Shown: positions 1-31,571 of the stretch, in pieces
Numbering within the stretch: position 1 is the stretch's first letter
Layout of the letters: the number at the start of each line of letters is the position of its first letter
Assembly: GCA_040902535.1 (NCBI GenBank)
Contig: JBBDXD010000022.1
Coordinates: 220,823-284,822 of the forward strand
Origin: Dehalococcoidia bacterium
GTDB lineage: Bacteria > Chloroflexota > Dehalococcoidia > DSTF01 > JACRBR01
Reading direction: 5' to 3'
DNA: 64,000 bases
The notes under the pieces: model-generated
Database searches by the model: none
Seen by the model: the letters and a program-made list of their open reading frames with translations, nothing else
Told to the model about the DNA's origin: nothing
Program-made: the position numbers and the translations under genes

Positions 1-486
1 CACCATGCCGGGCAGGACGAGCAGCGGAGCGGCCGCAGCAAGGATGGCCGGTAACCATGCAAGCGGCACGGCTAGCAGCAGTGCCGCAGCGGCGGTTGTG
101 AGCGCGATGACGTAAACGGAGAGGCCGCGCTCGAAGAGCACGAGCGCGGCACCGTCACGGGCTGCCACATTGGCCCGCGAACGTAAGAGGACGCCGCGCA
201 GGACCTCGCCGCTGGATGCCGGCGTGAGTGATCCGGCGACATTACCTACGATAGCGATAGGGAGCGCCGTTTGGATGCTAAGACGATATCCGAGCCTCGT
301 CAGCACGAAGGACGAACGCACGCCAAACAGTAGTGCCACCGGCACGGTGAGGAGCGCTGCGACAACAATCAACGATGCATTGGCGTTGGCGATCGCGTCG
401 CGCATTGCAGCGAGATCCGTGCGGACGACGAGGTACGCGAAGAACGCCAGCACTAGCGCGAGTTGCGCCGCGCGCCAGAATCTCAC
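1..486 (-). CDS. Flippase-like / lysylphosphatidylglycerol synthase TM-domain protein (UPF0104-like), partial, runs off left edge
   Basis: Manual translation from GTG at 486 (GTGA overlap with the upstream stop): MRFWRAAQLALVLAFFAYLVV...GNVAGSLTPASSGEVLR...LFERG. Hydrophobic, frame open to base 1. Absent from the ORF track. Confidence 0.7.
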   Translation of the reverse strand, partial: MRFWRAAQLALVLAFFAYLVVRTDLAAMRDAIANANASLIVVAALLTVPVALLFGVRSSFVLTRLGYRLSIQTALPIAIVGNVAGSLTPASSGEVLRGVLLRSRANVAARDGAALVLFERGLSVYVIALTTAAAALLLAVPLAWLPAILAAAAPLLVLPGMV

Positions 487-1517
487 GATCGTGCCAGCGG
501 TGCCACTTCGCGGCGGCGGCCGATGCCGTACAGGCGTCGCAGCAGCCAGTGCCGTTCGACACGCCGGGTGGTGAGGATGCGTCGCCGCCGGGAGGAAAGT
601 CTGGGCATCATGATAAGCGCGGTGAAGGGCGCGATCAGCGCCGGCGGGATGAGCAGCAGGAAATGTAACACGCGCCGTGGCGCCGGCGTGCCAAACTGCG
701 CTGCGTTGAACGGGGCGCCAATGACCGTAAGCGTCGCGAGCGGGATGAACTCGTCCCACGTGCTGCACTTCCACATCGCCAGCAATCGGTTGCGGATGAT
801 CCGCACGGTCTTCTGAAACGATCGCAGCGAGGGGCGCGCCTCGAGGGTGTGTCGATGATAGACGGTCGCGCGGGTCGCAGCGACGGTCCGGTAGCCAGCA
901 GCAATGACGCGAAGCGCAAGATCGAGATCTTCGGCATACGCGAACATGTCCGGATCGAAGGCGTACCCCGAATCCTCGATGAAGGACCGGCGAGCGATGA
1001 TGGAGACTCCGTGCAGGAATGTCGTGTCAACGATCCGGTCAGCCAGCGGAATGCCGCGATAACGGATGTAGCCGAGCGGTGACAGGTCGGCGGTGTACGC
1101 CGCATCGACTGGCTGTTGTCGTTCCATCGCCTCGAATTGGGGGTACCACGGCTGCAAGATGTTCGCGTGCGCGGCCTGGATCGAGGGATCACCTTCGATC
1201 GCCGCGAGCAACTCGCGCAGCCACGATCGGTGCAGCACGACGTCTTGATTCAGGAACACCACGTACTCGCCGCAGGCGTGCTCGAACCCGATGTTGTTGC
1301 CGATGCAGTAGCCGTAGTTCCGGTCGAGCCGGTGTACCTGCACATCGTCGTAGGTTGCGGCACGATCAGGCGTCCCGTCCGTCGAGCCGTTGTCGATGAA
1401 GAGCACTTCGTAGGGGCGGCCGATGTCTTGATCAAGCAGGGTCGTCAGGCATTCGTCGACGTACCCGACGCCGTTCCACCCAAGCACGATCACGCTTACG
1501 ACGGGCGGCTCATTCAA
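483..1517 (-). CDS. Glycosyltransferase family 2
   Basis: VSVIVLGWNG, IDNGSTDG, LDRNYGYCIGNN, FLNQD and YAEDLDL motifs. Start reassigned to TTG at 1517 (TTGA overlap with the upstream stop). Confidence 0.88.
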   Translation of the reverse strand: MNEPPVVSVIVLGWNGVGYVDECLTTLLDQDIGRPYEVLFIDNGSTDGTPDRAATYDDVQVHRLDRNYGYCIGNNIGFEHACGEYVVFLNQDVVLHRSWLRELLAAIEGDPSIQAAHANILQPWYPQFEAMERQQPVDAAYTADLSPLGYIRYRGIPLADRIVDTTFLHGVSIIARRSFIEDSGYAFDPDMFAYAEDLDLALRVIAAGYRTVAATRATVYHRHTLEARPSLRSFQKTVRIIRNRLLAMWKCSTWDEFIPLATLTVIGAPFNAAQFGTPAPRRVLHFLLLIPPALIAPFTALIMMPRLSSRRRRILTTRRVERHWLLRRLYGIGRRREVAPLARS

Positions 1518-2206
1518 GGCGATCCTCGTGAAGCTGCCGGGTCGGCGCGGCGGGCGATCACCCGGTAGGTGTGCGGAAGGACGCGCGCGAGCAGCTTGCC
1601 GGCCGCCCGTTCGAGCGGGCTGCGACCGGCCACGTAACCTTCGATCCGCAGGACCGCCAGGCCGCCATCGGCGAAGAGGCGTTCGAGGCCGGTGCGGCTG
1701 AATGGACGTACATGCGTGTAGTCGTCCCAGAAGTTCCCGATCGGAAAGAACTGAGAATAGACAGAAGGGACGTGGGCGATCAAGCAACCCCCGGGCGCGA
1801 TCAAACGCGCAGCTGCGCGGACTGTTGCCAGCGGATCGTCGAGGTGCTCGATGATTTCCTTCAGACGCACTACGTCGAACGACGCATCAGCAAACGGCAG
1901 TTCAGGTGCTCTCCCGAGCACTGACCAGACGCCGCGAGAGCGCCATAGTTCTGGCGCCGTCGGCTCCATGTCGACGCCGAGCGCATCGCAGCCAAGCGCG
2001 CGGGCGGCCATCACGAACCCTCCCCGACCTGCGCCAATATCGAGAATGCGAGGGTGTGCGGGGCTGACCTCCCGAATCGCGCGGAGATCCCACGCATCAA
2101 GCTCCGGATGCTCATGAATGTGCTGCAGGGGGCCGGCGATCGAGGAATCGATGGTCCGCGAGATCTTCCCGCCCTGCGAGGAGTGGGCGGCGAACAAGCT
2201 GATCAC
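1514..2206 (-). CDS. Class I SAM-dependent methyltransferase
   Basis: ILDIGAGRG motif I and LPFADASFDVV. Coupled on both sides by 4-nt overlaps. Confidence 0.88.
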   Translation of the reverse strand: MISLFAAHSSQGGKISRTIDSSIAGPLQHIHEHPELDAWDLRAIREVSPAHPRILDIGAGRGGFVMAARALGCDALGVDMEPTAPELWRSRGVWSVLGRAPELPFADASFDVVRLKEIIEHLDDPLATVRAAARLIAPGGCLIAHVPSVYSQFFPIGNFWDDYTHVRPFSRTGLERLFADGGLAVLRIEGYVAGRSPLERAAGKLLARVLPHTYRVIARRADPAASRGSP

Positions 2207-3387
2207 CGCTCGCCCTCGAGCATGCTGGAGAGCGCGCCCACCAGTCCCACGTTGGCGCCCACCACGATCAACGACTGGGCAACTCCGGCGACGCCGAGCC
2301 GGTTGAGCCCGGCGAGGTCATCGATGGCGAGTGCGACGTCCAGCCCGAGTCCGGCGAGGATCAACACGAATCCGCCGCCGACGAACGCCTCGAATCCCAG
2401 GTAGCGGTGATAGAAGCGCAGGACGCTATCCTCGTTCGTGATGCCCCGGGCCGTCGTATAGAGTCGCGATGCGAACCCGAGCAGCAGCGCGTTCACGCCG
2501 ACGACGAGAAAGATGCCGCCGGCGAAGATAGGTTGCCACGAGAGGTCGCCGATCTCGACCGTCTCATCGGGCAGCGCGAGCGCGAGGGTGAGCACGCCGA
2601 GCAGCGTCAGGAAGATGCCTGGCAGCGTGAACAGGTAGTTGGGGCTCGCGAGCAGCAAGAAGCGCAGATGCCGCCAGCCGTCGCGCACGGTGTTGAGCTT
2701 GGCCTCGCCGAGCCGCTCGCCGTAGGGCACCGGCACGTCCATGACGCGCAGCCCGCGGCGCGCCGACTTGAGGATCATTTCGGATGCCAGTTCCATGCCG
2801 TCGGTCTGCAGTTCGAGCCGGTTGAGCGCATCGCGGGTGAACGCCCGCAGGCCGCACTGGCTGTCGCCGACCTTGAGGCCGGTGAACACCTTGAGAAGCG
2901 CGGAGATCGCCGGCGTGCCGATGTAGCGATGACTCCAGGTCATGGCGCCCGGGGCGATACCGCCCGCGAACCTGTTACCGACGACCAGGTCGTAGCCGTC
3001 GGCCAGCGGCGAGACCAAGTCGTCCAACTGCGAGAAGTCGTACGTGTCATCACAGTCGCCCATGACGAGCCAGTTGCCGCGCGCTTCCGTGAACCCGCGT
3101 CGAAGGGCGGCGCCGTAGCCGCGCGTGGTCTCGTGTACGATGCGTGCGCCGGCCTCTTCGGCGAGTTCTGGTGACCCATCGGAGGAGCCATTGTCAACGA
3201 TGACCACTTCGCCGGCGTAGCCGCTCTGCCTGACCCAACCGAGCGCTTTCGTGACGCAGGCCGTCACGGTTTCACGCTCGTTGAGGCAGGGCATGACGAT
3301 GGAGACGAATGGCGCCCCAAGCTCGGCCGCACGCGGCTCCGCGGCTTGACGCTCGAACGCGTCCCCGGAAGAGTGAGCAATTGCCAT
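2203..3387 (-). CDS. GT2 glycosyltransferase (DPM1-like) with C-terminal TM helices
   Basis: VSIVMPCLNE, VDNGSSDG, RGYGAAL, MGDCDDTY and DSQCGLRA motifs. Start reassigned to ATG 3387. Confidence 0.9.
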   Translation of the reverse strand: MAIAHSSGDAFERQAAEPRAAELGAPFVSIVMPCLNERETVTACVTKALGWVRQSGYAGEVVIVDNGSSDGSPELAEEAGARIVHETTRGYGAALRRGFTEARGNWLVMGDCDDTYDFSQLDDLVSPLADGYDLVVGNRFAGGIAPGAMTWSHRYIGTPAISALLKVFTGLKVGDSQCGLRAFTRDALNRLELQTDGMELASEMILKSARRGLRVMDVPVPYGERLGEAKLNTVRDGWRHLRFLLLASPNYLFTLPGIFLTLLGVLTLALALPDETVEIGDLSWQPIFAGGIFLVVGVNALLLGFASRLYTTARGITNEDSVLRFYHRYLGFEAFVGGGFVLILAGLGLDVALAIDDLAGLNRLGVAGVAQSLIVVGANVGLVGALSSMLEGER

Positions 3388-3499
3388 GGTTGGCCACCCT
3401 GTATACGATGCGCCGACACCGGAGACACCCCGGCGCGGGCAAAGGCTTCGGGAGTGTACTACAGATGCAGCCACCGCCCGGTGAATTGTCGGTCCGTGC

Positions 3500-6355
3500 G
3501 TGGAGGGGATTAAGGGTGCCAGCCACGTGACGGACGCGCAACGCCCCTTCATGGAACGCATCAAGACCGGCTGGAGCCCGCGGCGCCTAGGGGAACTCCC
3601 TACCGCCGTGAAGGTCTCGATCGCTCTCGCTATCGCGGTCAATCTTCTCTTTGCATTCGCGTACCTCTGGAGCCGCGGCGGCCAGGAGACGAAAGTCCGC
3701 GTCGAAGTGCGCGGAGATGAAGTCACCGCGTGGCTCGACGGCAAGCAGATCATCTCCGAGACGCTGGGGTCGATGGCCGGACGCGGCGGCGTCATGATCC
3801 GTGTCGATCCGACGACGTTTATCCCCAGTTTCCCGACACCTCGCGGCCTCGACAGTCTGCGCGTGACGGATCTCGAGAGCGGCGAGGTCCTGTTGGAAGA
3901 TGACTTCTCGTCGCTGGATCCGCAATTGATTCAGCGTGGCGGCGCCGCCGTCGAGGATGGGCACGTCGGCAGCCGCGACCTCATGGTCATCGGCCCGTTC
4001 GGCGCCGGCTGGCGGGATGTCCGCGTCGAAGCCGAGTTCGACAATATCGTTGGCGGCGGCGTGATGGTGCGGTCGGACGGCCAGCTCAACGGCGCCTCGT
4101 TCAATTTCCGGCCGTACCGCCACCTGGATTCCAGCCTTCAACTGCTCAAGGACGGCGCCGTGGTCGAAGGCGCCGCCGGCCCCCGTCTCGAAGCGTCGCA
4201 GGGCGAGGTCATGCGCTCGCTCGTGGCGATGACTGTCCGTGGCTATCCGATGGTGCTGCTGGCATTCGCCGGACTTGTGGTGGTCGTGGGCGCGGTGCTC
4301 TTCGTGGAAGTCCCGTTCGATATGACATCACAACGGCAACGACTGCGCGACCGCTGGCGTGCGTTCGACCGCTGGTTGCCGCTGGCGCCGTGGATCTTCG
4401 TTTCGCTGATCGCGCTTGGCGCGGTCATCGTCACCGCGTACATCAACACCGTCTACAACGATCGTCTGCCGCATGTCCCGGACGAAGTCTCGTACATCTT
4501 CCAGGCGCGCACACTGGCTTCGGGCAGGCTTTCGGTTCCGCCGCCCCCCGTGGAGGAGTCGTTCAACTTCTTTCATCCGCCGCTGATCGCCGTGTCCGAT
4601 GGCAAATGGGCCAGCATCTACCCGCTCGGTCACCCGCTCGTGCTGGCGATCGGCGTGAAGCTGGGCATCCTGTGGCTGATGCCGCCGCTCGTCGGCGGCG
4701 CGACGCTGCTGTTGCTCTTCGGCGCGGCGAAGCAGATCTACAACGTGCGCGTCGGCCTGATCGCTGTGTTGTTTCTTGCGGCGTCGCCGTTTTTCCTCAT
4801 GACAGCCAGCAACTACATGTCGCACAACACCGCCGTGCTGTACGTCGTCGCGAGCCTCTTCTGCATTGCACACCGCGACAGGCATCCCCTGGCGATGCCA
4901 GTCCTTGCCGGCATCTTTTTCGGTCTGCTGCTCAACACGCGCCCGCTGACTGCGACGGCACTTGTCGTGCCGTTCGGGCTGATGCTTCTTGCCTGGCTGA
5001 TACCACCCGATAACCGCATCGCTGCGCTCAAGAGCATCGGGTTCTTCGTCCTCGGCGGAGCGGCGATGCTGCTGGCGTACGGTTTGTACAACCTTGGCAC
5101 GACCGGCGACCTGTTCCTGGCGGGCTACTCGACGGGAGCGGACCTGAACGAAGTCGTGGGTTTCGGCGGCGCGCATTCGGTCGGACTGGGCCTGCAAAAC
5201 GAACAGACGCAGATGGCGACGCTGCTGCTCGTATTCAACGGCTGGCCGCAAGTGCTGGGCATCATCATTGTGGCGACGCCGTTCATATTTGGCACGCGCG
5301 ACCGCTGGGACTGGATCCTGCTGGCCTGCGCGATCGCCGTCATGGGCGTCTACACGCTGTACGAAGCGCCGGGATTGATGCACGGTCCTCGTTACTGGTA
5401 CGAGGCCATGCCCTTCCTGGTGTTGCTCGCCGCACGCGGGATCGAAGTGCTCGCATCGGCTGGTGCGCGGGCCGCCGCGGGCATCCTCGCGTCCATCACG
5501 GGTGGGAGCCGGCGCGCGGACTGGGCGGGCTATGCCGTGGTCTACCCTCTGGTCGCGGCCCTCTCGCTGGTTGCCGCCAACGATTGGTTGCGGGGTGACG
5601 GACTGGACTTCGCCGTCGATGCCGTGCCGCGATCGGCGAACGAACTGCAGGGGTTCAACGGCGTCAACAATAATATGGTGAGCGCCATCGACGAACGCGA
5701 CCTGAGCAACGCCCTGGTGCTCGTCGAGACGTGCCCGAATTGGCAGTGCATCGGCAGCGTCTTCTGGCGAAATGCGCCGACGCTTGACGGCGATATTGTC
5801 TATGCGAAGGACCTGCCTCACCGAAACGGTCAACTCTTCGATCTGTATCCCGATCGGCTCGTGTACCAGGCGTTGTACGGCGCCGGCGAAGTATCGGTGT
5901 ATGGCGGGCTGCCCGAGGGCGATTCGCCGGATGCAGAACCGCCACGCGCCGGTGATATCCCCACCGCTACGCCGGAGCCGACGGCGACGCCAGATCCCGA
6001 TATCGCGCAGCGCAACGATACGCGCCGCATCGCCGATCTCGAACGTGTCCGCCAGGGGCTCGAGGAGTACCAGGGCGCGCACGGCGGGTATCCGTTGGCG
6101 GAGGGCGTGCAGACGCTGTGCGCCTACCCGTTCGACTCCGCGTGCCTGTTGGAAGAATTCATCGATCTGCCGCGCGATCCGAACCCGCAGGGCACCTACT
6201 GGTACCAGTCAGACGGCGTGACATTCGTCGTGTACACGTCGCTCGAGATGCCCGGGGACGGGTCGCAGTGCCCCGATCCGGTGCCCCCTCACCTGGCGCA
6301 GATACCGAATCTTTACTGCGTCAGGGGCGGCGACGCCCCGTTAGCCGAGCAGTGA
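3500..6355 (+). CDS. Large multi-TM GT-C-fold glycosyltransferase (PMT/ArnT-like) with extra N- and C-terminal domains
   Basis: HVPDEVSYIFQARTL (DE motif after a TM helix), YPLGHP, many TM segments, GPRYWYE. Start uncertain (3500, 3527 or 3551). Confidence 0.75.
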   Translation: MEGIKGASHVTDAQRPFMERIKTGWSPRRLGELPTAVKVSIALAIAVNLLFAFAYLWSRGGQETKVRVEVRGDEVTAWLDGKQIISETLGSMAGRGGVMIRVDPTTFIPSFPTPRGLDSLRVTDLESGEVLLEDDFSSLDPQLIQRGGAAVEDGHVGSRDLMVIGPFGAGWRDVRVEAEFDNIVGGGVMVRSDGQLNGASFNFRPYRHLDSSLQLLKDGAVVEGAAGPRLEASQGEVMRSLVAMTVRGYPMVLLAFAGLVVVVGAVLFVEVPFDMTSQRQRLRDRWRAFDRWLPLAPWIFVSLIALGAVIVTAYINTVYNDRLPHVPDEVSYIFQARTLASGRLSVPPPPVEESFNFFHPPLIAVSDGKWASIYPLGHPLVLAIGVKLGILWLMPPLVGGATLLLLFGAAKQIYNVRVGLIAVLFLAASPFFLMTASNYMSHNTAVLYVVASLFCIAHRDRHPLAMPVLAGIFFGLLLNTRPLTATALVVPFGLMLLAWLIPPDNRIAALKSIGFFVLGGAAMLLAYGLYNLGTTGDLFLAGYSTGADLNEVVGFGGAHSVGLGLQNEQTQMATLLLVFNGWPQVLGIIIVATPFIFGTRDRWDWILLACAIAVMGVYTLYEAPGLMHGPRYWYEAMPFLVLLAARGIEVLASAGARAAAGILASITGGSRRADWAGYAVVYPLVAALSLVAANDWLRGDGLDFAVDAVPRSANELQGFNGVNNNMVSAIDERDLSNALVLVETCPNWQCIGSVFWRNAPTLDGDIVYAKDLPHRNGQLFDLYPDRLVYQALYGAGEVSVYGGLPEGDSPDAEPPRAGDIPTATPEPTATPDPDIAQRNDTRRIADLERVRQGLEEYQGAHGGYPLAEGVQTLCAYPFDSACLLEEFIDLPRDPNPQGTYWYQSDGVTFVVYTSLEMPGDGSQCPDPVPPHLAQIPNLYCVRGGDAPLAEQ

Positions 6356-6607
6356 TCCGAGGCGCTGGCACAGCGCCTCGAGTTCGTACGTGCGTGATTG
6401 CAGTGCGGGCGCGATGCCCCGCGGCTCCCAGTTATTGAAGCGCCCGGGGTGTCCGTAGTCCGTCTGCTCGAAGCGGGCCTCGCCCTTCGGCGCGCGGATG
6501 ACGATGAGACGTCGCACCATGGGGTGGGGTGTGCCGTGCGCGGGGTCGTAGCCGGGGTATCGCTGCTCCGTCACGGTCAGTTCAAGGATCGCTGGTGCTT
6601 CGCTCAT
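6341..6607 (-). CDS. Small hypothetical protein
   Basis: 88-aa ORF with protein-like composition and a TACAGT -10-like hexamer 6 nt before the ATG. Confidence 0.6.
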   Translation of the reverse strand: MSEAPAILELTVTEQRYPGYDPAHGTPHPMVRRLIVIRAPKGEARFEQTDYGHPGRFNNWEPRGIAPALQSRTYELEALCQRLGSLLG

Positions 6608-6676
6608 GGGCGGACTGTAACCTGTCCGCCGCGGCGCCGTCTCTCCGTCTTTGGTCGGAGTCCGTGATGCGACGGC

Positions 6677-9067
6677 TCAGAACTTGAGCTCTTCCGGCTC
6701 ATCGCCCTCGCTGCGATCGGGCGGGTAGACGATGCGAGAGCCGCCGCCTTCGTTGGGGCCGACGACGCCCTGCTCCTCCAGCATGTCCACCAGACGAGCG
6801 GCTCGTGGATACCCGATGCGGAGGCGCCGCTGCAAAAGAGACGTTGACACGCGGTTGTGCTCGTACGCCAGTTCCTTCGCGCGATCGAACATGTCGTCGG
6901 TGGCGCCTTCCTGTTCGAGTTCCGCCTTCGCCTCGTCGAAGAGGTGGTCGAACGTCGGGCGGTCGATGTCGGCGAAGCGATCCTGCGTCCAGAACTCCAC
7001 CAGCTTCTCGATCTCCTCGTCGGAGACGAAGACGCCTTGCAGGCGCTTGGGCTTGGCGGCGTCCGGCGCCATGTAGAGCATGTCGCCGCGCCCGAGCAGC
7101 TTTTCGGCGCCCGCCATATCGAGGATCGTGCGCGAGTCCACTTGCGAGCTGACCGCGAAGGCGATGCGCGTGGGGAAATTCGCCTTGATCAGGCCCGTGA
7201 TGACATCGACAGAGGGGCGCTGCGTCGCGACGACCAGGTGGATGCCCGTGGCGCGTGCGAGCTGCGCAAGGCGGCAGATCTGGCGCTCGACCTCGAACGG
7301 CGCCGCCATCATCAGGTCCGCAAGCTCGTCGATGATGACGACCCAGTACGGCATCTTCTCAGCGGCGCGCGGGCTGCGGTTGTAACCGTCGATGTTGCGG
7401 ACGGCGATCGACGCGAACTTGCGGTAGCGCGACTCCATCTCGTGGATCACGGCCTGCAGCGTGCCCACGACCTTGTCCATATCGACGACGATGTTTGAGA
7501 ACGCGAGGTGCGGGATCGGCCGGAACGCCGATAGCTCGACGCGCTTCGGGTCGATCATGACGAACCGCACTTCAGAGGGTGATGCGTGCATGAGGATGCA
7601 CGAGATGATGGCGTTCATGCAGACGGACTTGCCGGAGCCGGTCGTACCGGCGATCAACAAGTGAGGCATCTTCGTCAGGTCGGCGACGATAGGTTCGCCG
7701 GATACGCTCTGGCCCAGCGCGAGCGTAAGCTTGCTCTTACCGGACGCCTTCTGGAAATGTTGCGCCTGCACGACGCTGCGCAACGTGACGAGCGACTTCG
7801 TCGCGTTTGGCACTTCGATGCCGAGGACGGGCTTACCCGGCACGGGGGCCTCGATGCGGATCGAAGGCGCGGCGAGCGCCAGCGCCATGTCGTTCGCGAG
7901 CGACGTGATCTGCTGCACGCGCACGCGCGTCCGCGAGACTTCTTCGGCGTGCGTCTTCGGCCGGCCGTCCTTGTCGAGGACCGTCTTGCCTTCCTTGTCC
8001 TTCTCGACGATGTTGCGCGTCTTGATCTCCCACCCCGGTTCGATGCCGAACTGCGTGACCGTCGGCCCTTCGTTGACCTGGACGACGCGTGCATCGACGC
8101 CAAAGCTCTTCAACGTTTCCTCGATGAGTTGCGCCCGCAGCGTGTTATCGGCGGTCTCATCATCCACGGGCTTCTTGTCGCTGAGGACATCCATCGAAGG
8201 AAGCTGCCAGCCGTCGCGTGAGCGGCGCTTGCCGAGTTCGTCGACCGTGACGCCGGGGCCATCGTCGTCTTCCTCGTCCCCCTCGTCGTAATCGAACATG
8301 TCGGCCTGGACGGCTTCCTCTTCGTCCTCCTCATCCTCTTCGACCTCGTCGGCGACCGCTCCGGAGGTGCGCGCCCACATCACGGAATCGATCGGCACCT
8401 TGACCGAGCCTGTGGGTGCGGGCTTCGTCGGGAAGATGAACTCGAACATCGAGCGGGCGCCTGCGCCCATGCGATGCGGCAACCGCCAGTCCCACGCCGC
8501 GCGCGCCATGATCGGCGCGTTTTGCATCGCGGTCTGGGCGCCGGCTGGCCAGATCAAGGCGAACGCGGCGACGCCGATGATCAGCCACGCGAGAATGCCG
8601 AGCGGGTTGCCGGCGAGCCGCTGGCCCAGGTCGCCGCCGAGCGTGTGATCGTGTACGGAAACATCGCCGAGGCTCCAGTCAGGGCGGAAGAATCCGAAGA
8701 AGCCCGTCAGGAACAGGCCCGCCGCGACGCCCATCGCCCAGGGCCGCCAGTCCGCCCACAGCTTGTGCTGTTCATCGCGGATGACGAGCCAGCCGGCGTA
8801 GAGCAGCAGTCCGATCCAGCCGAAGATCAGCAGCCCGAATGTCTCGACGAAGCCGTTGCGCGCATCGGCGAGGCCGGAGGTGAAGGGCACGAGCCACGGC
8901 ACGGCCAGCAGGGCCATCACGATCAGCGCGACGCCGATGCTCTCGCGGCGGATCAGCAGGTCATGCAGCGTCGACCAGGCGGACTGGCCACCGCGCCGCC
9001 TCCCGACGGCCTTCACCGGCGCCTTCTTTGCGCGTGTTCCGGGCTTCGCTCGCGTCCTTGCGGCCAA
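6677..9067 (-). CDS. ftsK: DNA translocase FtsK/SpoIIIE
   Basis: N-terminal TM helices, GTTGSGKS Walker A, IIDELADLM Walker B, C-terminal gamma domain (STSLLQRRLRIGYPRAARL). Confidence 0.97.
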   Translation of the reverse strand: MAARTRAKPGTRAKKAPVKAVGRRRGGQSAWSTLHDLLIRRESIGVALIVMALLAVPWLVPFTSGLADARNGFVETFGLLIFGWIGLLLYAGWLVIRDEQHKLWADWRPWAMGVAAGLFLTGFFGFFRPDWSLGDVSVHDHTLGGDLGQRLAGNPLGILAWLIIGVAAFALIWPAGAQTAMQNAPIMARAAWDWRLPHRMGAGARSMFEFIFPTKPAPTGSVKVPIDSVMWARTSGAVADEVEEDEEDEEEAVQADMFDYDEGDEEDDDGPGVTVDELGKRRSRDGWQLPSMDVLSDKKPVDDETADNTLRAQLIEETLKSFGVDARVVQVNEGPTVTQFGIEPGWEIKTRNIVEKDKEGKTVLDKDGRPKTHAEEVSRTRVRVQQITSLANDMALALAAPSIRIEAPVPGKPVLGIEVPNATKSLVTLRSVVQAQHFQKASGKSKLTLALGQSVSGEPIVADLTKMPHLLIAGTTGSGKSVCMNAIISCILMHASPSEVRFVMIDPKRVELSAFRPIPHLAFSNIVVDMDKVVGTLQAVIHEMESRYRKFASIAVRNIDGYNRSPRAAEKMPYWVVIIDELADLMMAAPFEVERQICRLAQLARATGIHLVVATQRPSVDVITGLIKANFPTRIAFAVSSQVDSRTILDMAGAEKLLGRGDMLYMAPDAAKPKRLQGVFVSDEEIEKLVEFWTQDRFADIDRPTFDHLFDEAKAELEQEGATDDMFDRAKELAYEHNRVSTSLLQRRLRIGYPRAARLVDMLEEQGVVGPNEGGGSRIVYPPDRSEGDEPEELKF

Positions 9068-19881: not shown

Positions 19882-21288
19882 ATGAAGGCGGTCGGATACT
19901 TCCGAGAGGCGCCGGAGTGCGGCCAGACGCTTGCTCAGCAGAACAAGCTCTTCCTGGAGTTCTGCGATCGCGAAGGCTACGAGGTCGCGGGCACGTTCGC
20001 CGATGGCGCTTCGTCCAACGGGCGGGCGCCGGGGTTCCGCCAACTCGTCGCGTTCCTGCGCGAGCGCGAAGGCGCCTTCCACGTCGTCGTGGTGCCGAGC
20101 ATGGAGACGCTCGGCGGCGACGTGAGGGACGCGGCCGTGCGCTATTTCCAGATCGAAGGACTCGGCGCGCAACTCGCCTCGATGGACGGTACCGCCGATG
20201 CGTCGGCCGGACTGCTCTCGGCGTGGACCACGCACGACGACGGCAACAAGCTCAGCGACCGCGTGCGCGCGGCGATGCGACGCAAAGCCGTGAAGGGCGA
20301 AGTGCTCGGCCGGCCGCCGTACGGTTATAAGGTCGGCAACCGGCGGCGCCTGGAGCTGATCCCGGAAGAGGCAGTCGTCGTGCGTTACATTTACCGTCTC
20401 TACCTGCATGAGAGCATGGGCATCCGCCTGATCGCCCGGCGCCTGAACGAAGAAGGCCTGAAGACGCGGCGCGGCGGCAACTGGAGCATGGTGAGTATCC
20501 GCGACATCTTGCGGAACCGCGCCTATCTCGGCACGTACTCCCGGTTCGGCGTCCGCGTGCCCGGCAGCCATCCGTCGCTTGTCGCCAACGACGACTTCAA
20601 GCTCGTGCAGGACCGGCTCAACGCGCGTCGCACGAGTTATTCGCCGCGCGTGACGTCGCAGTTCCTGCTGTCCGGCATGGCGCACTGCGGCTACTGCGGC
20701 AACAAGCTGATCGGCGTCAGCCGCAAGCAGACCTGGAAGCGCAAGAGCGGCGAACGCGTCGAGAACTCGTACCGCTATTACCAGTGCGAGTCGCGCACGA
20801 ACCAGAGCGTCTGCAGCTACCACACGCGCCGCGCCGAAGATCTCGAGGCGGAGGTACGCGCGTCGATCGAGACGTCCGTCCGCGAGGGGCACGGCCTGCC
20901 GCCGGCCGCGAACGAGGCATCGCTTGTGGCGGATAAGGAGCACGAACGTGAGCGCCTGGCCTCCCGCGTCCGCGCCGTCGACAAGCGGCTGGAAGGCTAC
21001 GTGGAGGCAGCCGTCAAAGGACGTCTGACGAAGGAGAAGATGCACGAGTTGAGCGTTGCCGCCGCCTCGGACAGGCTCCGCCTCGAAGACGCGCTGGAAC
21101 TCGTAGAGCGTCGCATAACCGATCGCGAGCACGCGTCCGATCGCAAGCAGACGCGCGAGCGCGATGTAGCGCGCCTCGTGCGCGAGTGGAGCGACCTGCG
21201 CTTTGCGGAGCGCCAGAACGCCCTGCGCGAAGCGGTCTCCCGCGTGACGGTTTCCGACGATCGCATCGACGTCACGCTGCGCCCCTAA
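19882..21288 (+). CDS. Large serine recombinase-family protein with degenerate catalytic domain
   Basis: GRPPYGY, recombinase domain (IARRLN..G..T..G..WS..SIR.IL.N.AYLG), zinc ribbon (LLSG.AHCGYCG..YYQC..C) and coiled coil. N-terminal motif is YFREA instead of YxRxS. Confidence 0.88.
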   Translation: MKAVGYFREAPECGQTLAQQNKLFLEFCDREGYEVAGTFADGASSNGRAPGFRQLVAFLREREGAFHVVVVPSMETLGGDVRDAAVRYFQIEGLGAQLASMDGTADASAGLLSAWTTHDDGNKLSDRVRAAMRRKAVKGEVLGRPPYGYKVGNRRRLELIPEEAVVVRYIYRLYLHESMGIRLIARRLNEEGLKTRRGGNWSMVSIRDILRNRAYLGTYSRFGVRVPGSHPSLVANDDFKLVQDRLNARRTSYSPRVTSQFLLSGMAHCGYCGNKLIGVSRKQTWKRKSGERVENSYRYYQCESRTNQSVCSYHTRRAEDLEAEVRASIETSVREGHGLPPAANEASLVADKEHERERLASRVRAVDKRLEGYVEAAVKGRLTKEKMHELSVAAASDRLRLEDALELVERRITDREHASDRKQTRERDVARLVREWSDLRFAERQNALREAVSRVTVSDDRIDVTLRP

Positions 21289-29545: not shown

Positions 29546-30763
29546 ATGCCCGCCCTGCTGTTTAACGACGCGGTCCTGCTCGACGGCACCGGCGCCGAGC
29601 CGCGCGGCCGCTCCAGCGCGCTCGTCGAGGATGGACGCATCGCCCGTATCGACGCCTCGGGGGCGATCGATGCGCCTGTGGGTGCGCGAGTCATCGACTG
29701 TGGCGGCCGCACGCTCATGCCCGGACTCACCGACGCGCACGTGCATTTCGGCCTGACCGACGATGGCACGCGCACGCCGGAAAGCCACGTCTCGTACGTG
29801 TTGAAGGTGGTCGAGAACATTCGCATCGCGCTCGATGAGGGGTTCACGACCGTGCGCGACGCCGGCGGCCTCGATCCCGCATACGCGCTGGCCGTCGAAC
29901 AGGGACAGATCCCGGGGCCGCGCATCCTGCCCTCAGGGTCATTCCTCTCGCAGACCGGCGGCCACGGCGACCAGCGCTTCCGCTTCGACGACGAGGCGCC
30001 GCCATCGATCCCCGGCCTGGTCGCCCATAGTGAGATCTGCGACAGCCCGGACGACGTGCGCCGCGCCGCGCGCAAGCAGATCCGCCGCGGCGCCACGCAG
30101 GTCAAGCTGATGGCGTCCGGCGGCATCATGTCGCCCAATGACCCGCTCGAAAGCCTCCAGTTCTCCGTCGAGGAGATGGCGGCGGCGGTCGCCGAGGCGC
30201 GGTCCTTCGGCACGTACGTCATGGCGCACACGCACACGTCCGGCGCGATGAATCGCGCGCTCGATGCCGGCGTGCGGTCATTGGAGCACGCAAGCATGCT
30301 CGATCAAGCGACGGCTCGGCGCATCGCGGAGCAGGACGCGTACATCGTCCCGACGCTGGTCATCTTCGAGATCCTTTCGCGGTCGGACCGGATCCCCGAG
30401 TTCAGCCGCAGCAAGCTCGAACTGGTGCGGCGCGAGGCGGCCGCGAGCGTACGCGTCGCGCTCGATGCGGGCGTGCGCATCGCGTCCGGGTCGGACCTGC
30501 TCGGGCCATCGCAGCGCCGGCGTGGGAACGAGATCGTCGAGAAGGCGAAGCACATGGGCGCCATGGCGGCGATCGTCAGCGCGACGAAGACGAACGCGGA
30601 ACTCTTCCGCATGGCGGACCGCATCGGTACGGTCGAAGCAGGCAGGGAAGCGGACCTGATCGTCGTAGACGGCGACGTCGGCGGAGACGTTGGCGCGCTG
30701 GTCGATGCGCGGAATGTCGTGCTGGTCGTGAAGTCGGGCGAGATCGTGAAGGACGCGCTCTAG
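29546..30763 (+). CDS. Amidohydrolase family (prolidase-like)
   Basis: PGLTDAHVH, GFTTVRDAG, QVKLMASGG, LEH and GSD motifs. Confidence 0.92.
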   Translation: MPALLFNDAVLLDGTGAEPRGRSSALVEDGRIARIDASGAIDAPVGARVIDCGGRTLMPGLTDAHVHFGLTDDGTRTPESHVSYVLKVVENIRIALDEGFTTVRDAGGLDPAYALAVEQGQIPGPRILPSGSFLSQTGGHGDQRFRFDDEAPPSIPGLVAHSEICDSPDDVRRAARKQIRRGATQVKLMASGGIMSPNDPLESLQFSVEEMAAAVAEARSFGTYVMAHTHTSGAMNRALDAGVRSLEHASMLDQATARRIAEQDAYIVPTLVIFEILSRSDRIPEFSRSKLELVRREAAASVRVALDAGVRIASGSDLLGPSQRRRGNEIVEKAKHMGAMAAIVSATKTNAELFRMADRIGTVEAGREADLIVVDGDVGGDVGALVDARNVVLVVKSGEIVKDAL

Positions 30764-31400
30764 AGGGCAGCCCCGCCTGTTCGAGCCGCTGGCGCATCTT
30801 CTCTTCACTCATGAAGCCGTAGTGCAGCGCCGCAAGATTGCCCTCGCGGTCGATGAAGAAGCTGTCGGGCAACCCCTGCAGCAGGTACTGGTTGTACACC
30901 GAGCCGCTGCGGTCGAGCAGCATGGGCACCGAGATGCCCAGGTCGTCGAAGAACGCCCGCGCGTCCTCCTGGTTGTCCTGGTAGTTGACGGCGAGCACCT
31001 CGAGGCCTTCGTCGCGCTTTTCATCGTAGAGTTTCTGGATGTCCGGCAGTTCGTCGCGGCACGGGCGGCACCACGTTGCCCAGAAATTCACGAAGACGAC
31101 CTTGCCCCGCAGATCGCTGAGCTTGACGATCTCGCCGTCTGCGTCACGCAGGGCGAAGTCGGGCGCCGGCGCGCCCAAGGTGGGGCTGCGGCCGTCGAGC
31201 GCGCCCAGCCCGGGGTCATCCGGCTCGCCCGTCGCCTCGCCGGTCGGCGGCGCGATGATTTCGGGGCTGTCGCCGTCATCGGCGCGGCCGGCGCGCACGG
31301 CCAGAAAGACGCCGCCCAGCACCGCCAGCAGCACGATGGCCAACGCGGCGCGCGCGACGGGACGCTCGGTGATCGGCGGCGATTCACGTCCGGATTGCAT
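30576..31400 (-). CDS. TlpA/ResA-like thiol-disulfide oxidoreductase
   Basis: TM anchor, APDF.L and NFWATWCRPC. ATG 31400. The expected stop near 30760 is out of frame (see findings). Confidence 0.9.
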   Translation of the reverse strand: MQSGRESPPITERPVARAALAIVLLAVLGGVFLAVRAGRADDGDSPEIIAPPTGEATGEPDDPGLGALDGRSPTLGAPAPDFALRDADGEIVKLSDLRGKVVFVNFWATWCRPCRDELPDIQKLYDEKRDEGLEVLAVNYQDNQEDARAFFDDLGISVPMLLDRSGSVYNQYLLQGLPDSFFIDREGNLAALHYGFMSEEKMRQRLEQAGLPSRARPSRSRPTSRPARHSAHRPARQRLRRRRRLRRSGPLPCLLRPYRCGPPCGRVPRSSSSR

Positions 31401-31571
31401 ACCTAACTCTAACGCTCGGCGTGTCGTGCGAGCAGAGCCCATCGACGTGATGCCCAGGCGCCCGGACAACGGGGCGTCGATCGAGCGCACCCGCGATCCG
31501 CGCCTTGACTTCGATCCGGCGGCGATTCAGGCTTCAGTGCGCATGAGCCACCGCGCTGGATGGGCCGCACT

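What the first reader, a model, noticed from the sequence alone, without database searches (positions are those of the whole stretch)
6010..6352. GT-C glycosyltransferase fused to a pilin/GspG-like C-terminal domain
Seen: after a Pro/Thr linker (PTATPEPTATP) comes RNDTRRIADLERVRQGLEEYQGAHGGYP...LPRDP...YWYQSDG..FVVYTSLE, with Cys residues. This matches the globular part of GspG-like/CPR-type pilins (RD..R.ADL..+...L..Y......YP...LP.DP....Y.Y.S....F.+...LE) without the N-terminal hydrophobic helix. Inference: a tethered pilin-head domain that may target the enzyme to pili/archaella or act as a self-acceptor. I do not know this architecture as described.
Basis: partly seen in the sequence, partly recalled or inferred. 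Interest (0 to 1): 0.68.

Follow-up and report, generated by a model that had tools for sequence, protein, structure and literature searches.

The report
Tethered pilin-like head on a glycosyltransferase
A membrane sugar-transferring enzyme of an uncultured sediment bacterium (class Dehalococcoidia) really does end in a pilus-subunit "head" on a flexible tether. The same head is fused to, or encoded next to, several unrelated enzymes of this kind, so the pairing is functional, but what the head does has not been tested.

Summary
ORF 3527-6355 (+) encodes a 942-aa protein. From N to C it has a TM helix, a jelly-roll ectodomain, a GT-C core (ArnT/PMT/OST-like, invariant Asp in the first outer loop), a small ectodomain, a Pro/Thr linker, and a 111-residue domain with four invariant Cys.

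That last domain is a GspG/T2SSG-type pilin head. A family profile's eight best PDB hits are all GspG/EpsG. 21 of 29 members hit Pfam T2SSG, and relatives pass its threshold. The AlphaFold model is confident (pLDDT 93), and its best credible structural matches are pilins, though weakly.

The domain has no prepilin leader or hydrophobic helix, so it cannot polymerise the way pilins do.

The fusion is not a chimera. It occurs in about 68 of 120 homologues from independent assemblies, and a 48x contig spans the junction.

New here:
- The same linker-plus-head cassette sits on at least three GT-C groups whose cores BLAST cannot link.
- It also exists as single-pass anchored proteins.
- In four loci such a protein is encoded directly upstream of a head-less PMT_2 gene, three with overlapping start and stop codons. 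This is a fused-versus-split ("Rosetta stone") relationship.

Function is inferred only. I favour an acceptor-side binding module. A cis or trans O-glycosylation acceptor is the main rival. Docking to pili is unsupported.

The parts
3527..6355 (+). Whole gene: 942-aa multidomain GT-C glycosyltransferase. The GTG start at 3527 is the one used by database protein P0001; the longest ORF starts at 3500.
   Evidence: ORF listing. 100% match to P0001 and more than 120 homologues in Dehalococcoidia/Chloroflexota MAGs. Full-length AF2 model has pLDDT 88.5 and pTM 0.84.
3527..3685 (+). Short cytoplasmic N-terminus plus first transmembrane helix (residues 1-53).
   Evidence: Helix 26-48 in the model; hydrophobic stretch in the translation.
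3686..4177 (+). All-beta jelly-roll (concanavalin/GH16-like) ectodomain, residues 54-217. It lies between TM1 and TM2. It is probably a glycan-binding module.
   Evidence: Strands 54-217 at pLDDT above 90. Foldseek hits to circularly permuted 1,3-1,4-beta-glucanase 1ajo, E 3e-3. No Pfam hit.
4199..5596 (+). GT-C transmembrane core, residues 225-690. The catalytic-loop motif H-V-P-D-E-V-S-Y is at 4472-4495, with Asp319 at 4481-4483.
   Evidence: Foldseek: ArnT 5f15 E 7.7e-7, AglB, ALG12, PglB, Pmt4, AftB. Pfam PMT_2 24.9 bits, just below the gathering threshold of 26.1. H316, D319 and Y323 are invariant and E320 is present in 34 of 49 sequences.
5624..5899 (+). Small alpha/beta C-terminal ectodomain, residues 700-791, with a conserved Cys pair (C736/C741). 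Paralogues without the head end shortly after this domain.
   Evidence: Model secondary structure. Near-invariant C736 and C741. Head-less paralogues match the query only to about residues 784-812.
5900..5995 (+). Flexible Pro/Thr/Ala-rich linker, residues 792-823: YGGLPEGDSPDAEPPRAGDIPTATPEPTATPD.
   Evidence: Translation. pLDDT below 50 at residues 817-820. Across homologues the linker is 23-62 aa, variable in sequence, with 31-74% P+T+S+A.
5996..6352 (+). Pilin-like (T2SSG/GspG-type) head, residues 824-934, plus an 8-residue tail. Its order is: long alpha1-C-like helix, alpha-beta loop with a short helix, then beta-strands. Four invariant Cys lie at 6119-6121, 6143-6145, 6269-6271 and 6317-6319, and probably form two disulfides.
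   Evidence: Alignment A1 invariants: D, R, P, Cx7C, P, CP...C. Profile against PDB: the 8 best hits are all GspG/EpsG. T2SSG hit in 21 of 29 members. AF2 pLDDT 93.2 with H4-32, E38-43, H51-57, E72-75, E80-85, E109-114. Best credible Foldseek hits are pilins at TM about 0.5.
2203..3795 (-). Divergently transcribed GT2 with C-terminal TM helices. It belongs to the class of polyprenyl-phosphate sugar synthases and is the likely maker of the lipid-linked donor. Its true start is probably well inside this ORF, near 3387.
   Evidence: Pfam Glycos_transf_2 E 6e-27 at residues 165-326. NCBIfam best hits: AglJ 4.4e-47, dolichyl-phosphate hexose transferase 1.6e-35, PpgS, ArnC, all below the equivalog cut-offs. 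A homologue is adjacent in 4 related loci: L013, L014, L016, L021.
483..1787 (-). Second GT2 glycosyltransferase upstream.
   Evidence: Pfam Glycos_transf_2 E 1.7e-22. A homologue is near the GT-C in L016, L019, L022, L023, L051 and L057.

Best explanation
**What it is (shown).** The last roughly 120 residues are a pilin-derived, non-polymerising ectodomain. They keep the alpha1-C helix and the beta-sheet head of a GspG-type pseudopilin and appear to be stabilised by two disulfides. They lack the prepilin leader and the hydrophobic alpha1-N helix. The head hangs outside the membrane on a flexible linker of about 30 residues, rich in Pro and Thr, at the C-terminus of a GT-C glycosyltransferase.

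**How it most likely works (inferred).** A polyprenyl-phosphate sugar is made by the neighbouring GT2. The GT-C core uses it on the outer face of the membrane through the invariant Asp319 in its first outer loop. The tethered head acts on the acceptor side as a mobile binding or recruitment module. This would resemble the catalytic domain - Pro/Thr linker - binding module layout of secreted glycoside hydrolases, and the C-terminal TPR, MIR or CBM domains of other GT-C enzymes.

**Likely targets (inferred).** These are envelope proteins or glycans. They may include the many single-pass 'TM anchor + Pro/Thr linker + head' proteins of the same lineage, whose linkers look like O-glycosylation acceptors.

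**The coupling between head and enzyme is supported.** The nature of what the head binds is inference.
For: **Fold and homology.**
- Profile against PDB: the 8 best hits are all GspG/EpsG.
- T2SSG hits in 21 of 29 members; relatives retrieved by the profile pass the T2SSG threshold.
- AF2 pLDDT 93.2; pilins are the best credible Foldseek matches.

**Not a filament subunit.** No prepilin motif in 132 relatives or in the window.

**Extracytoplasmic location.** Four invariant Cys in the head plus a Cys pair in the preceding ectodomain.

**Flexible tether.** The linker is 23-62 aa, variable in sequence and of low confidence in the model.

**GT-C identity and donor.** Foldseek to ArnT, AglB, PglB and Pmt4. 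D319 is invariant. The adjacent GT2 is of the AglJ / Dol-P-hexose / ArnC class.

**Functional coupling.**
- (i) The fusion is kept in about 68 of 120 homologues at 37-74% identity.
- (ii) The same head is fused to at least three GT-C groups whose cores BLAST does not link.
- (iii) The linker-plus-head of P0154 is 69% identical to that of P0008, while the remaining 550-800 residues give no alignment.
- (iv) In L063, L066, L068 and L069 a stand-alone anchored head gene lies directly upstream of a head-less PMT_2 GT-C. The gap is 14 bp in L063, and the start and stop codons overlap in the other three. In L063, L066 and L069 the GT-C core is 36-42% identical to fused relatives. In L068 the GT-C is cut after 89 residues; that fragment is 45% identical to the L063 GT-C.
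- (v) Among the 150 best hits, 16 of the 17 large multi-TM partners outside the window's own family carry PMT_2/PMT-family cores. 14 were scanned directly against Pfam; P0199 and P0252 are assigned by 31-44% identity to scanned members. The seventeenth, P0213, has no Pfam hit.
Against: - No binding partner is identified and there are no experimental data.
- Foldseek E-values for the isolated head are weak (best 0.28).
- The window's own sequence is below the Pfam thresholds for both PMT_2 and T2SSG.
- I could not inspect model coordinates or the PAE, so I do not know whether the head docks on the enzyme.
- Head-less paralogues coexist in the same MAGs: L011 versus L038, L014 versus L047. The head is therefore not needed for GT-C catalysis as such.
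- Other stand-alone heads have no glycosyltransferase next door: L001, L002, L061, L064.
- The operon order 'pilin-like gene then GT-C' is, in its only characterised precedent, a substrate-enzyme pair rather than an adaptor-enzyme pair.
Confidence: 0.4

Rival explanations
1. **The linker-plus-head is the acceptor, not an adaptor.** The GT-C O-glycosylates Ser/Thr of the Pro/Thr linker, or of the head itself. It does so in cis on its own tail and in trans on the stand-alone anchored heads. The system would then be a domesticated pilin / pilin-glycosyltransferase pair that has lost filament assembly, and the fusion simply supplies the membrane anchor and proximity to the active site.
For: - The gene order 'head gene immediately upstream of a PMT_2 GT-C' occurs in four loci. 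It copies pilA-tfpW and pilA-tfpO, where the pilin is glycosylated on Ser/Thr by the downstream enzyme.
- Pro/Thr-rich segments precede every head, both in fusions and in singles. From established knowledge of actinobacterial Pmt, such segments are typical acceptors.
- Several partner enzymes pass the Pfam thresholds for PMT and PMT_2.
- There are more singles than fusions among the best hits: 51 against about 37.
Against: - Enzyme-substrate fusions are rare, and a fused acceptor would be used only once.
- The only near-invariant Ser/Thr in the head is S75, within the YWYxSDG turn, which looks structural.
- Linker sequences are not conserved.
- The head is as conserved as the catalytic core: 52% against 49% mean column identity. 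That is more than a passive cargo would seem to need.
- No glycoproteomic data exist.
Confidence: 0.27
2. **The first reader's main idea.** The head docks the enzyme onto type IV pili, pseudopili or archaella, or onto true pilin subunits in the membrane, so that those filaments are glycosylated.
For: - The head is homologous to pilin heads.
- Pilins are known glycosylation targets of GT-C and O-OTase enzymes.
Against: - The window has no prepilin-motif ORF and no second copy of the domain.
- No pilus, T2SS or prepilin-peptidase families were found among 34 scanned ORFs, or next to the related genes in the loci examined.
- None of the 132 closest relatives of the head is a true prepilin.
- Without alpha1-N the head cannot be incorporated into a filament (established knowledge).
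- I did not survey whole genomes for pilus machinery.
Confidence: 0.08
3. **The head is a structural or localisation element with no role in acceptor choice.** For example, it could act as a spacer, a stabiliser, or a homotypic contact that clusters these membrane proteins into a surface layer. Under this reading its association with GT-C enzymes reflects shared localisation only.
For: - The head occurs in many contexts. These include tandem arrays (P0143 with 6 copies, P0226 with 3) and simple anchored singles.
- Head-less paralogues exist in the same genomes.
Against: - Among the best hits, 16 of the 17 large multi-TM fusion partners outside the window's own family are PMT_2/PMT-family GT-C enzymes, and the seventeenth (P0213) has no Pfam hit.
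- Gene coupling recurs with the same enzyme family, with overlapping start and stop codons in three of four loci.
- The cassette has been exchanged between distinct GT-C genes.

Together these argue for a link to the glycosylation reaction itself.
Confidence: 0.15

Closest known systems
GspG/EpsG major pseudopilins of type II secretion (Pfam T2SSG, PF08334), and type IV pilins generally
   Same: - The alpha1-C helix is followed by 'G-x-YP', an alpha-beta loop, 'LP-x-DP' and a 'Y-x-Y' beta-hairpin.
- The profile alignment to EpsG covers residues 8-80 of the domain.
- The predicted topology is a helix plus an antiparallel sheet.
- A C-terminal disulfide is reminiscent of the D-region of type IVa pilins (inference from the Cys positions).
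   Different: - There is no prepilin leader, no N-methylated Phe or Glu5, and no hydrophobic alpha1-N.
- A Pro/Thr linker replaces the continuous alpha1 helix.
- The C-terminal third does not align to GspG, so its Ca-binding loop is not recognisably present.
- Four invariant Cys are present.
- There is no pilus or T2SS gene context.
- The domain is fused to, or anchored beside, an enzyme rather than assembled into a fibre.
PMT/PMT_2 (GT39) protein O-mannosyltransferases and ArnT (GT83): GT-C enzymes that use polyprenyl-phosphate monosaccharide donors
   Same: - The core has the GT-C fold.
- An acidic D-E motif lies in the first outer loop.
- The neighbouring GT2 belongs to the polyprenyl-P-sugar synthase class.
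- Other head-bearing relatives pass the PMT and PMT_2 thresholds.
   Different: - The window's protein is below the PMT_2 threshold: 24.9 against 26.1 bits.
- It has an extra N-terminal TM helix plus a jelly-roll ectodomain.
- It has no MIR domain.
- It carries the pilin-like head.
- Its donor and acceptor are unknown.
Pseudomonas aeruginosa pilA-tfpW and pilA-tfpO pilin glycosylation pairs
   Same: - A pilin(-like) gene lies immediately upstream of a multi-TM glycosyltransferase.
- TfpW is a GT-C enzyme with a large C-terminal periplasmic protein-interaction (TPR) domain.
- The same gene order occurs in L063, L066, L068 and L069.
   Different: - Here the pilin-like partner is not a prepilin and cannot form a pilus.
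- In many genomes it is covalently fused to the enzyme.
- I made no sequence comparison between the enzymes here and TfpW or TfpO.
Catalytic domain - Pro/Thr linker - carbohydrate-binding module layout of secreted glycoside hydrolases (for example in Cellulomonas), and the C-terminal CBMs of mycobacterial EmbA/B/C and AftD
   Same: - The enzyme is joined through a flexible Pro/Thr-rich tether to a small, disulfide-containing accessory domain.
- In GT-C enzymes the accessory ectodomains bind the acceptor (established knowledge; Emb and AftD appear among the Foldseek hits).
   Different: - The accessory module has a pilin fold, not a CBM fold.
- No ligand is known.

Membership tests
Type IV pilin / T2SS pseudopilin (functional class: filament subunit) | Class III (prepilin) signal: short basic leader, Gly-1, then a hydrophobic alpha1-N of about 20 residues with Glu5, cleaved by a PilD-type peptidase. 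| tested here: not met
   The domain is preceded by a Pro/Thr linker inside a 942-aa protein. A regex for the motif finds none at the N-terminus of 132 relatives. In the window it matches only once, inside a 112-codon open frame at 3175-3510 that lies within the 5' extension of the opposite-strand GT2 ORF, and the motif is followed by charged rather than hydrophobic residues.
Type IV pilin / T2SS pseudopilin (fold) | An alpha1-C helix packed on an antiparallel beta-sheet, with an alpha-beta loop between them. | tested here: met
   AF2 pLDDT 93.2: H4-32, E38-43, H51-57, E72-75, E80-85, E109-114. Foldseek's best credible hits are pilins: 3g20 GspG, 4tsm and 6t8s PilA1, 4bhr, 4d40, at TM 0.34-0.51. 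E-values are weak, 0.28 or higher.
Pfam T2SSG (PF08334) | Sequence score at or above the gathering threshold of 21 bits. | tested here: inconclusive
   The window's domain scores 15.8-16 bits, E 0.013-0.015. 21 of 29 family members hit at E up to 1, best 1.2e-5. Profile-linked relatives pass: P0226 67.9, P0143 61.1, P0205 33.9, P0184 25.4, P0169 23.4 bits.
T2SS / type IV filament system | Genomic association with an assembly ATPase, a platform protein and a prepilin peptidase. | tested here: not met
   No such families among 34 window ORFs scanned, nor among genes called in L001, L002, L061, L063, L064 and L069. About 30 smaller window ORFs and the rest of the genome were not scanned.
GspG | A calcium-binding loop in the C-terminal part of the head. 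| not tested
   The profile alignment to GspG/EpsG stops at about residue 80 of the domain. The remaining part carries a conserved Cys pair instead. No structural superposition of that region was possible.
GT-C glycosyltransferase superfamily | A multi-spanning GT-C fold with a catalytic acidic residue in the first extracytoplasmic loop. | tested here: met
   Foldseek: ArnT 7.7e-7, AglB 1.8e-6, ALG12 5e-6, PglB 1.4e-5, Pmt4 3.6e-5, all at probability 1.00. D319 is invariant and E320 is present in 34 of 49 sequences in the 'HVPDEVSY' motif after the third helix.
PMT_2 / GT39 protein O-mannosyltransferase | Pfam PMT_2 or PMT score at or above threshold, and a protein Ser/Thr acceptor. | tested here: inconclusive
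   PMT_2 scores 24.9 bits against a threshold of 26.1 for the window protein. Most homologues are pre-annotated PF13231. The acceptor is not testable with these tools.
Polyprenyl-phosphate sugar-dependent pathway | A GT2 of the DPM1 / GtrB / ArnC / AglJ class encoded nearby to make the lipid-linked donor. | tested here: met
   ORF 2203-3795 (-): AglJ 4.4e-47, Dol-P-hexose transferase 1.6e-35, PpgS 2.7e-20, ArnC 1.4e-12. All are below the equivalog cut-offs, so the class is supported but not the exact enzyme. Adjacency recurs in only some related loci.

The most novel reading that the evidence does not exclude
A pilin and its dedicated glycosyltransferase have been domesticated together in Dehalococcoidia. 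The pilin lost its leader and polymerisation helix and became a membrane-tethered head on a Pro/Thr stalk. It remained the cognate acceptor of a PMT-type GT-C. It has repeatedly been fused to the enzyme, giving a self-glycosylating enzyme that displays its own glycosylated pilin-derived ectodomain on the cell surface. This would be a filament-independent afterlife of the pilin-glycosylation system.
Probability: 0.22. Interest if true: 0.72.

Novelty: new variant of a known kind. Interest (0 to 1): 0.55.

Why it matters
GT-C enzymes choose their acceptors through accessory ectodomains such as TPR, MIR, CBM and the STT3 C-terminal domain. I found no description of a pilin-fold accessory domain. 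I also found none of a pilin head used outside a filament as a tethered module.

The recurrent fusion, the exchange of the cassette between GT-C genes BLAST cannot link, and the split-gene operons define a testable functional pair in an abundant but uncultured sediment lineage.

If the head recruits acceptors, it is a new acceptor-recognition solution for protein or envelope glycosylation. If it is the acceptor, it links pilin glycosylation to a filament-free surface-display system.

In either case about 6,000 database proteins match the head profile. Among the best hits, the prepilin-less forms, both fused and membrane-anchored, would be mis-described if labelled as secretion proteins or left as hypothetical.

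Tried and rejected
- **Assembly chimera: rejected.** The junction is spanned by a 13,956-bp contig at depth 48 and is covered, with one short gap at 5897-5929, by three short contigs from a second sample. The fusion is conserved across many independent assemblies.
- **Chance motif resemblance: rejected** at family level.
- **True pilin or pseudopilin: rejected.** No leader or alpha1-N is present.
- **Pilus or T2SS neighbourhood: looked for and not found**.
- **Genome-collection scan with the head alignment:** failed because no stretch was conserved enough. A scan with the single protein found nothing. The full-length alignment worked.
- **Metagenome scan with stand-alone heads:** Contexts were therefore sampled one protein at a time. 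Several contigs were too short to be informative.
- **Literature:** four searches found no description of the architecture.
- **Conserved partner downstream of the window gene:** none found. The small ORF at 6341-6607 (-) has no family and recurs in only one related locus.


Full report
**1. The observation**

The longest ORF on the + strand runs 3500-6355 (951 aa). The database protein identical to it starts at the GTG at 3527 (942 aa, P0001), and I use that numbering. Translation of 5900-6355 reads: YGGLPEGDSPDAEPPRAGDIPTATPEPTATPDPDIAQRNDTRRIADLERVRQGLEEYQGAHGGYPLAEGVQTLCAYPFDSACLLEEFIDLPRDPNPQGTYWYQSDGVTFVVYTSLEMPGDGSQCPDPVPPHLAQIPNLYCVRGGDAPLAEQ*.

The given start (6010) is one base before the Arg829 codon. 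The naive translation of 6010-6352 is therefore out of frame, but that is only a coordinate slip.

**2. Is the fusion real?**

A homology search with the whole protein gave more than 120 homologues. Where a source names them, the name is glycosyltransferase family 39 or ArnT-like glycosyltransferase, and the taxon is Dehalococcoidia or Chloroflexi.

- phmmer with the last 136 residues finds the C-terminal domain in about 68 of those 120, always at the extreme C-terminus.
- A scan of one genome per GTDB species returned 58 loci. Nearly all are Dehalococcoidia or Chloroflexota MAGs. Across the loci then held, 27 carry the head; 25 of these come from the GTDB scan and two are stand-alone-head loci fetched earlier.
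- Some MAGs hold both a head-bearing and a head-less paralogue: LejiaD_66_34 (L011 versus L038) and ND5_Bin_30 (L014 versus L047).
- The window comes from a sediment metagenome. One run has a 13,956-bp contig at depth 48 that crosses the linker and head without any difference. A second sample holds the same sequence as three short contigs that leave 5897-5929 uncovered.

An assembly chimera is excluded.

**3. What the C-terminal domain is**

An alignment of 29 domains (A1) shows ten invariant residues in A1 numbering: D11, R14, P36, C45, D50, C53, P62, C95, P96 and C111. Near-invariant residues include Y35, Q42, Y47, D64, P65, Y71, Y73, S75, G77 and Y110.

- The window's own sequence gives only a sub-threshold Pfam T2SSG hit (E 0.015).
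- 21 of the 29 members hit T2SSG, best E 1.2e-5.
- A profile of A1 searched against all PDB sequences returns GspG/EpsG pseudopilins as its eight best hits, E 0.0015-0.3. The alignment runs from the alpha1-C helix through 'YP', 'LPxDP' and 'YxY'.
- The same profile searched against 1.84 billion representative proteins finds 5,959 proteins at E up to 1e-3. Several strong hits themselves exceed the T2SSG gathering threshold: P0226 67.9 bits, P0143 61 bits, and P0205, P0227, P0229 and P0273 at 29-34 bits. The homology is therefore transitive and solid.
- AlphaFold2 on A1 gives pLDDT 93.2 and pTM 0.86, with a 29-residue helix, a strand, a short helix and three further strands.
- Foldseek against the PDB has no statistically strong hit (best E 0.28). 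Every credible match is a pilin or pseudopilin at TM about 0.5: EHEC GspG 3g20, C. difficile PilA1 4tsm and 6t8s, Thermus TTHA1221, a Shewanella pilin, and PilE.

The domain is a pilin head.

**4. What it is not**

It has no prepilin leader and no hydrophobic alpha1-N. The helix is preceded by a linker of 23-62 residues, variable in length and sequence and rich in Pro/Thr/Ser/Ala, which is of low confidence in the full-length model.

- None of the 132 newly retrieved proteins among the profile's 150 best hits (P0142-P0273) has a G-F/M-T-L-I-E type motif at its N-terminus.
- The window contains no second copy of the domain. The prepilin-motif regex matches only once, inside a 112-codon open frame at 3175-3510. 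That frame lies within the 5' extension of the opposite-strand GT2 ORF, and the motif is followed by charged rather than hydrophobic residues.
- 34 ORFs scanned with Pfam contain no pilus or T2SS component.

By established knowledge of pilus assembly, a head without alpha1-N cannot be a filament subunit.

**5. The rest of the protein**

The full-length model (49-sequence alignment A2; pLDDT 88.5, pTM 0.84) and its Foldseek search give the following layout.

| Residues | Element | Evidence |
|---|---|---|
| 1-53 | Short N-terminus and TM1 | |
| 54-217 | All-beta jelly roll | resembles GH16 glucanases, E 3e-3 |
| 225-690 | GT-C core | ArnT 7.7e-7; AglB, ALG12, PglB, Pmt4, AftB, EmbB all at probability 1.0 |
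| 700-791 | Small alpha/beta ectodomain with a conserved Cys pair | |
| 792-823 | Linker | |
| 824-934 | Head | |

- The motif H-V-P-D-E-V-S-Y follows the third helix. H316, D319 and Y323 are invariant, and E320 is present in 34 of 49 sequences. This is the position of the catalytic acidic residues of GT-C enzymes.
- The divergently transcribed neighbour at 2203-3795 is a GT2 with C-terminal TM helices. Its best NCBIfam matches are AglJ, dolichyl-phosphate hexose transferase, PpgS and ArnC. That is the class that makes polyprenyl-phosphate sugars. A second GT2 lies at 483-1787. Homologous GT2 genes are adjacent in some, but not all, related loci.
- Downstream lie a small unannotated ORF, then FtsK and RNase J.

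**6. The head is a mobile cassette coupled to GT-C enzymes**

I classified the 132 newly retrieved proteins among the best profile hits:

| Class | Count |
|---|---|
| Members or fragments of the window's own family | 20 |
| Other multi-TM proteins | 17 |
| Proteins of 300 aa or fewer with one (occasionally two or three) predicted TM helix ahead of a Pro/Thr linker and the head | 51 |
| Short fragments | 29 |
| Proteins with tandem heads (P0143 six, P0226 three) | 9 |
| Other (314-394 aa, 2-3 predicted TM helices) | 6 |

- Of the 17 other multi-TM proteins, 14 were scanned against Pfam and all hit PMT_2 or PMT. Two more, P0199 and P0252, were not scanned but are 31-44% identical to scanned members. 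P0213 has no Pfam hit.
- P0169 and P0184 pass the Pfam thresholds for both PMT_2 and T2SSG.
- The cores of these 16 form one loose BLAST network with two tight sub-groups: P0154, P0190, P0191, P0251, P0252 and relatives; and P0169, P0172, P0193, P0198 and P0201. Neither sub-group is linked to the window's family.
- Direct comparison of the window protein with P0154 and P0251 aligns only the last 130-140 residues, at 39% and 35% identity.
- P0154 and P0008 have cores that give no BLAST alignment, yet they share a linker-plus-head that is 69% identical (E 2e-64). The cassette has moved between GT-C genes.

The stand-alone heads of one subgroup (P0132, P0183, P0186, P0259) are each followed by a gene for a head-less PMT_2 enzyme. 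The gap is 14 bp in L063; in the other three loci the start codon overlaps the upstream stop (printed as ATGA for L066 and L069).

| Locus | Head gene | Following GT-C gene |
|---|---|---|
| L063 | 3567-4163 | 4177-5799 |
| L066 | 1109-1732 | 1729-3384 (runs to the contig end) |
| L069 | 6001-6600 | 6597-8417 |
| L068 | 132-713 | 710-976 (cut by the contig end) |

- In L063, L066 and L069 that enzyme is 36-42% identical over about 500 residues to the cores of P0251, P0190, P0252 and P0154, which carry the head as a C-terminal fusion.
- In L068 only 89 residues of the GT-C are present. They are 45% identical to the N-terminus of the L063 GT-C.
- This is a classical fused-versus-split relationship and is the strongest evidence here for a functional link.
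- It is not universal. Stand-alone heads in L001/L061, L002 and L064 have no glycosyltransferase next door.

**7. Mechanism**

*Shown:*
- A disulfide-containing, extracytoplasmic pilin-fold head is attached by a flexible tether to a GT-C enzyme.
- The enzyme has an intact catalytic loop, and a donor-making GT2 is encoded beside it.
- The association of head and enzyme is conserved, recurrent and exchangeable.

*Inferred:* I commit, at about 0.4, to the head being an acceptor-side binding or recruitment module. Three arguments support this:
- It sits where TPR (TfpW, TMTC), MIR (PMT) and CBM (Emb, AftD) domains sit in other GT-C enzymes.
- The 'catalytic unit - Pro/Thr linker - small disulfide-bonded module' layout is that of enzymes with tethered binding modules.
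- The head is conserved as strongly as the core: 52% against 49% mean column identity.

*Main rival (about 0.27):* the linker-plus-head is itself the acceptor.
- The operon order copies pilA-tfpW and pilA-tfpO in P. aeruginosa. There the pilin gene is immediately followed by the GT-C or O-OTase that glycosylates it on Ser/Thr (bioRxiv 10.1101/2020.04.19.049825).
- Pro/Thr stalks are typical O-mannosylation acceptors (established knowledge of actinobacterial Pmt).
- The two models are not exclusive. An enzyme-borne head could recognise the heads of substrate proteins.

*Other readings:* docking to real pili (about 0.08) has no support. A purely structural or clustering role (about 0.15) fits poorly with the specificity for GT-C partners.

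**8. Comparison with known systems, and novelty**

The head works like, and descends from, a pseudopilin head, but it fails the defining feature of pilins (the class III signal and alpha1-N). It should not be filed as a pilin or as a T2SS protein.

The enzyme is a GT-C of the PMT/ArnT kind. Membership of PMT_2 is borderline for the window protein and clear for other head-bearing enzymes.

Four literature searches found no description of a pilin-fold accessory domain on a GT-C enzyme, or of tethered leaderless pilin heads in Chloroflexota. The architecture is, however, detectable with existing Pfam models in some relatives.

I rate it a new variant of known kinds (accessory-domain GT-C; pilin fold) rather than categorically new. 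It is of moderate interest because it defines a clean, testable enzyme-partner pair and a filament-independent use of the pilin fold.

Noticed in passing
window 3686-4177 (+): The same protein has a second unusual accessory domain. An all-beta jelly roll (GH16/concanavalin-like by Foldseek, no Pfam hit) is inserted between an extra N-terminal TM helix and the GT-C core. It is conserved in the whole family, whether or not the head is present.
   Followed up: partly
window 6341-6607 (-): An 88-aa ORF with coding-like GC3 overlaps the 3' end of the GT-C gene by 15 bp on the opposite strand. It has no Pfam or NCBIfam family. A 53%-identical copy lies near a head-less paralogue in L044.
   Followed up: partly
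window 19882-21288 (+): A large serine recombinase (Resolvase + Recombinase + Zn_ribbon_recom) lies next to an RNase HII gene. It may mark an integrated element.
   Followed up: no
window 43310-44545 (+): A 411-aa secreted protein with no Pfam family. It has an N-terminal signal-like helix and a C-terminal Pro/Thr-rich stretch followed by a hydrophobic helix and 'RRR'. This resembles a C-terminal sorting or anchor signal and makes it a candidate envelope glycoprotein.
   Followed up: no
window 34190-35167 (-): A D-alanyl-D-alanine carboxypeptidase (Peptidase_S11, E 9e-53). This Dehalococcoidia-class organism probably makes peptidoglycan, unlike Dehalococcoides proper. That matters for what an envelope-binding head could bind.
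   Followed up: no
L063 5891-10569: In the split-gene locus, the PMT_2 gene is followed by a 1089-aa protein without any Pfam hit and by a DUF2298 membrane protein. The operon may be a larger envelope-glycosylation unit.
   Followed up: no
P0143, P0226, P0205 (proteins): Some proteins carry tandem leaderless T2SSG-like heads. P0143 has six near-identical repeats. P0226 and P0205 have Lys/Asn/Ser-rich sequences quite unlike the Ala/Pro/Arg-rich window protein, so they probably come from a different, low-GC lineage. The tethered-head idea therefore extends beyond Dehalococcoidia.
   Followed up: partly
L031 5950-8751 and L046 5656-8704: In two MAGs the GT-C and head lie in separate, adjacent or overlapping reading frames although tblastn matches run through. 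This indicates a frameshift or in-frame stop. It could be a sequencing error, a pseudogene or recent fission.
   Followed up: no
L028: A contig carrying the fused gene is deposited in a MAG labelled Candidatus Bathyarchaeia archaeon. It is most likely a mis-binned Chloroflexota contig.
   Followed up: no
window 30576-31490 (-): An AhpC/TSA-Redoxin/thioredoxin-like protein with an N-terminal extension of about 100 residues. It may be a membrane-anchored extracytoplasmic thiol-disulfide oxidoreductase, which would be relevant to the conserved disulfides of the ectodomains.
   Followed up: no
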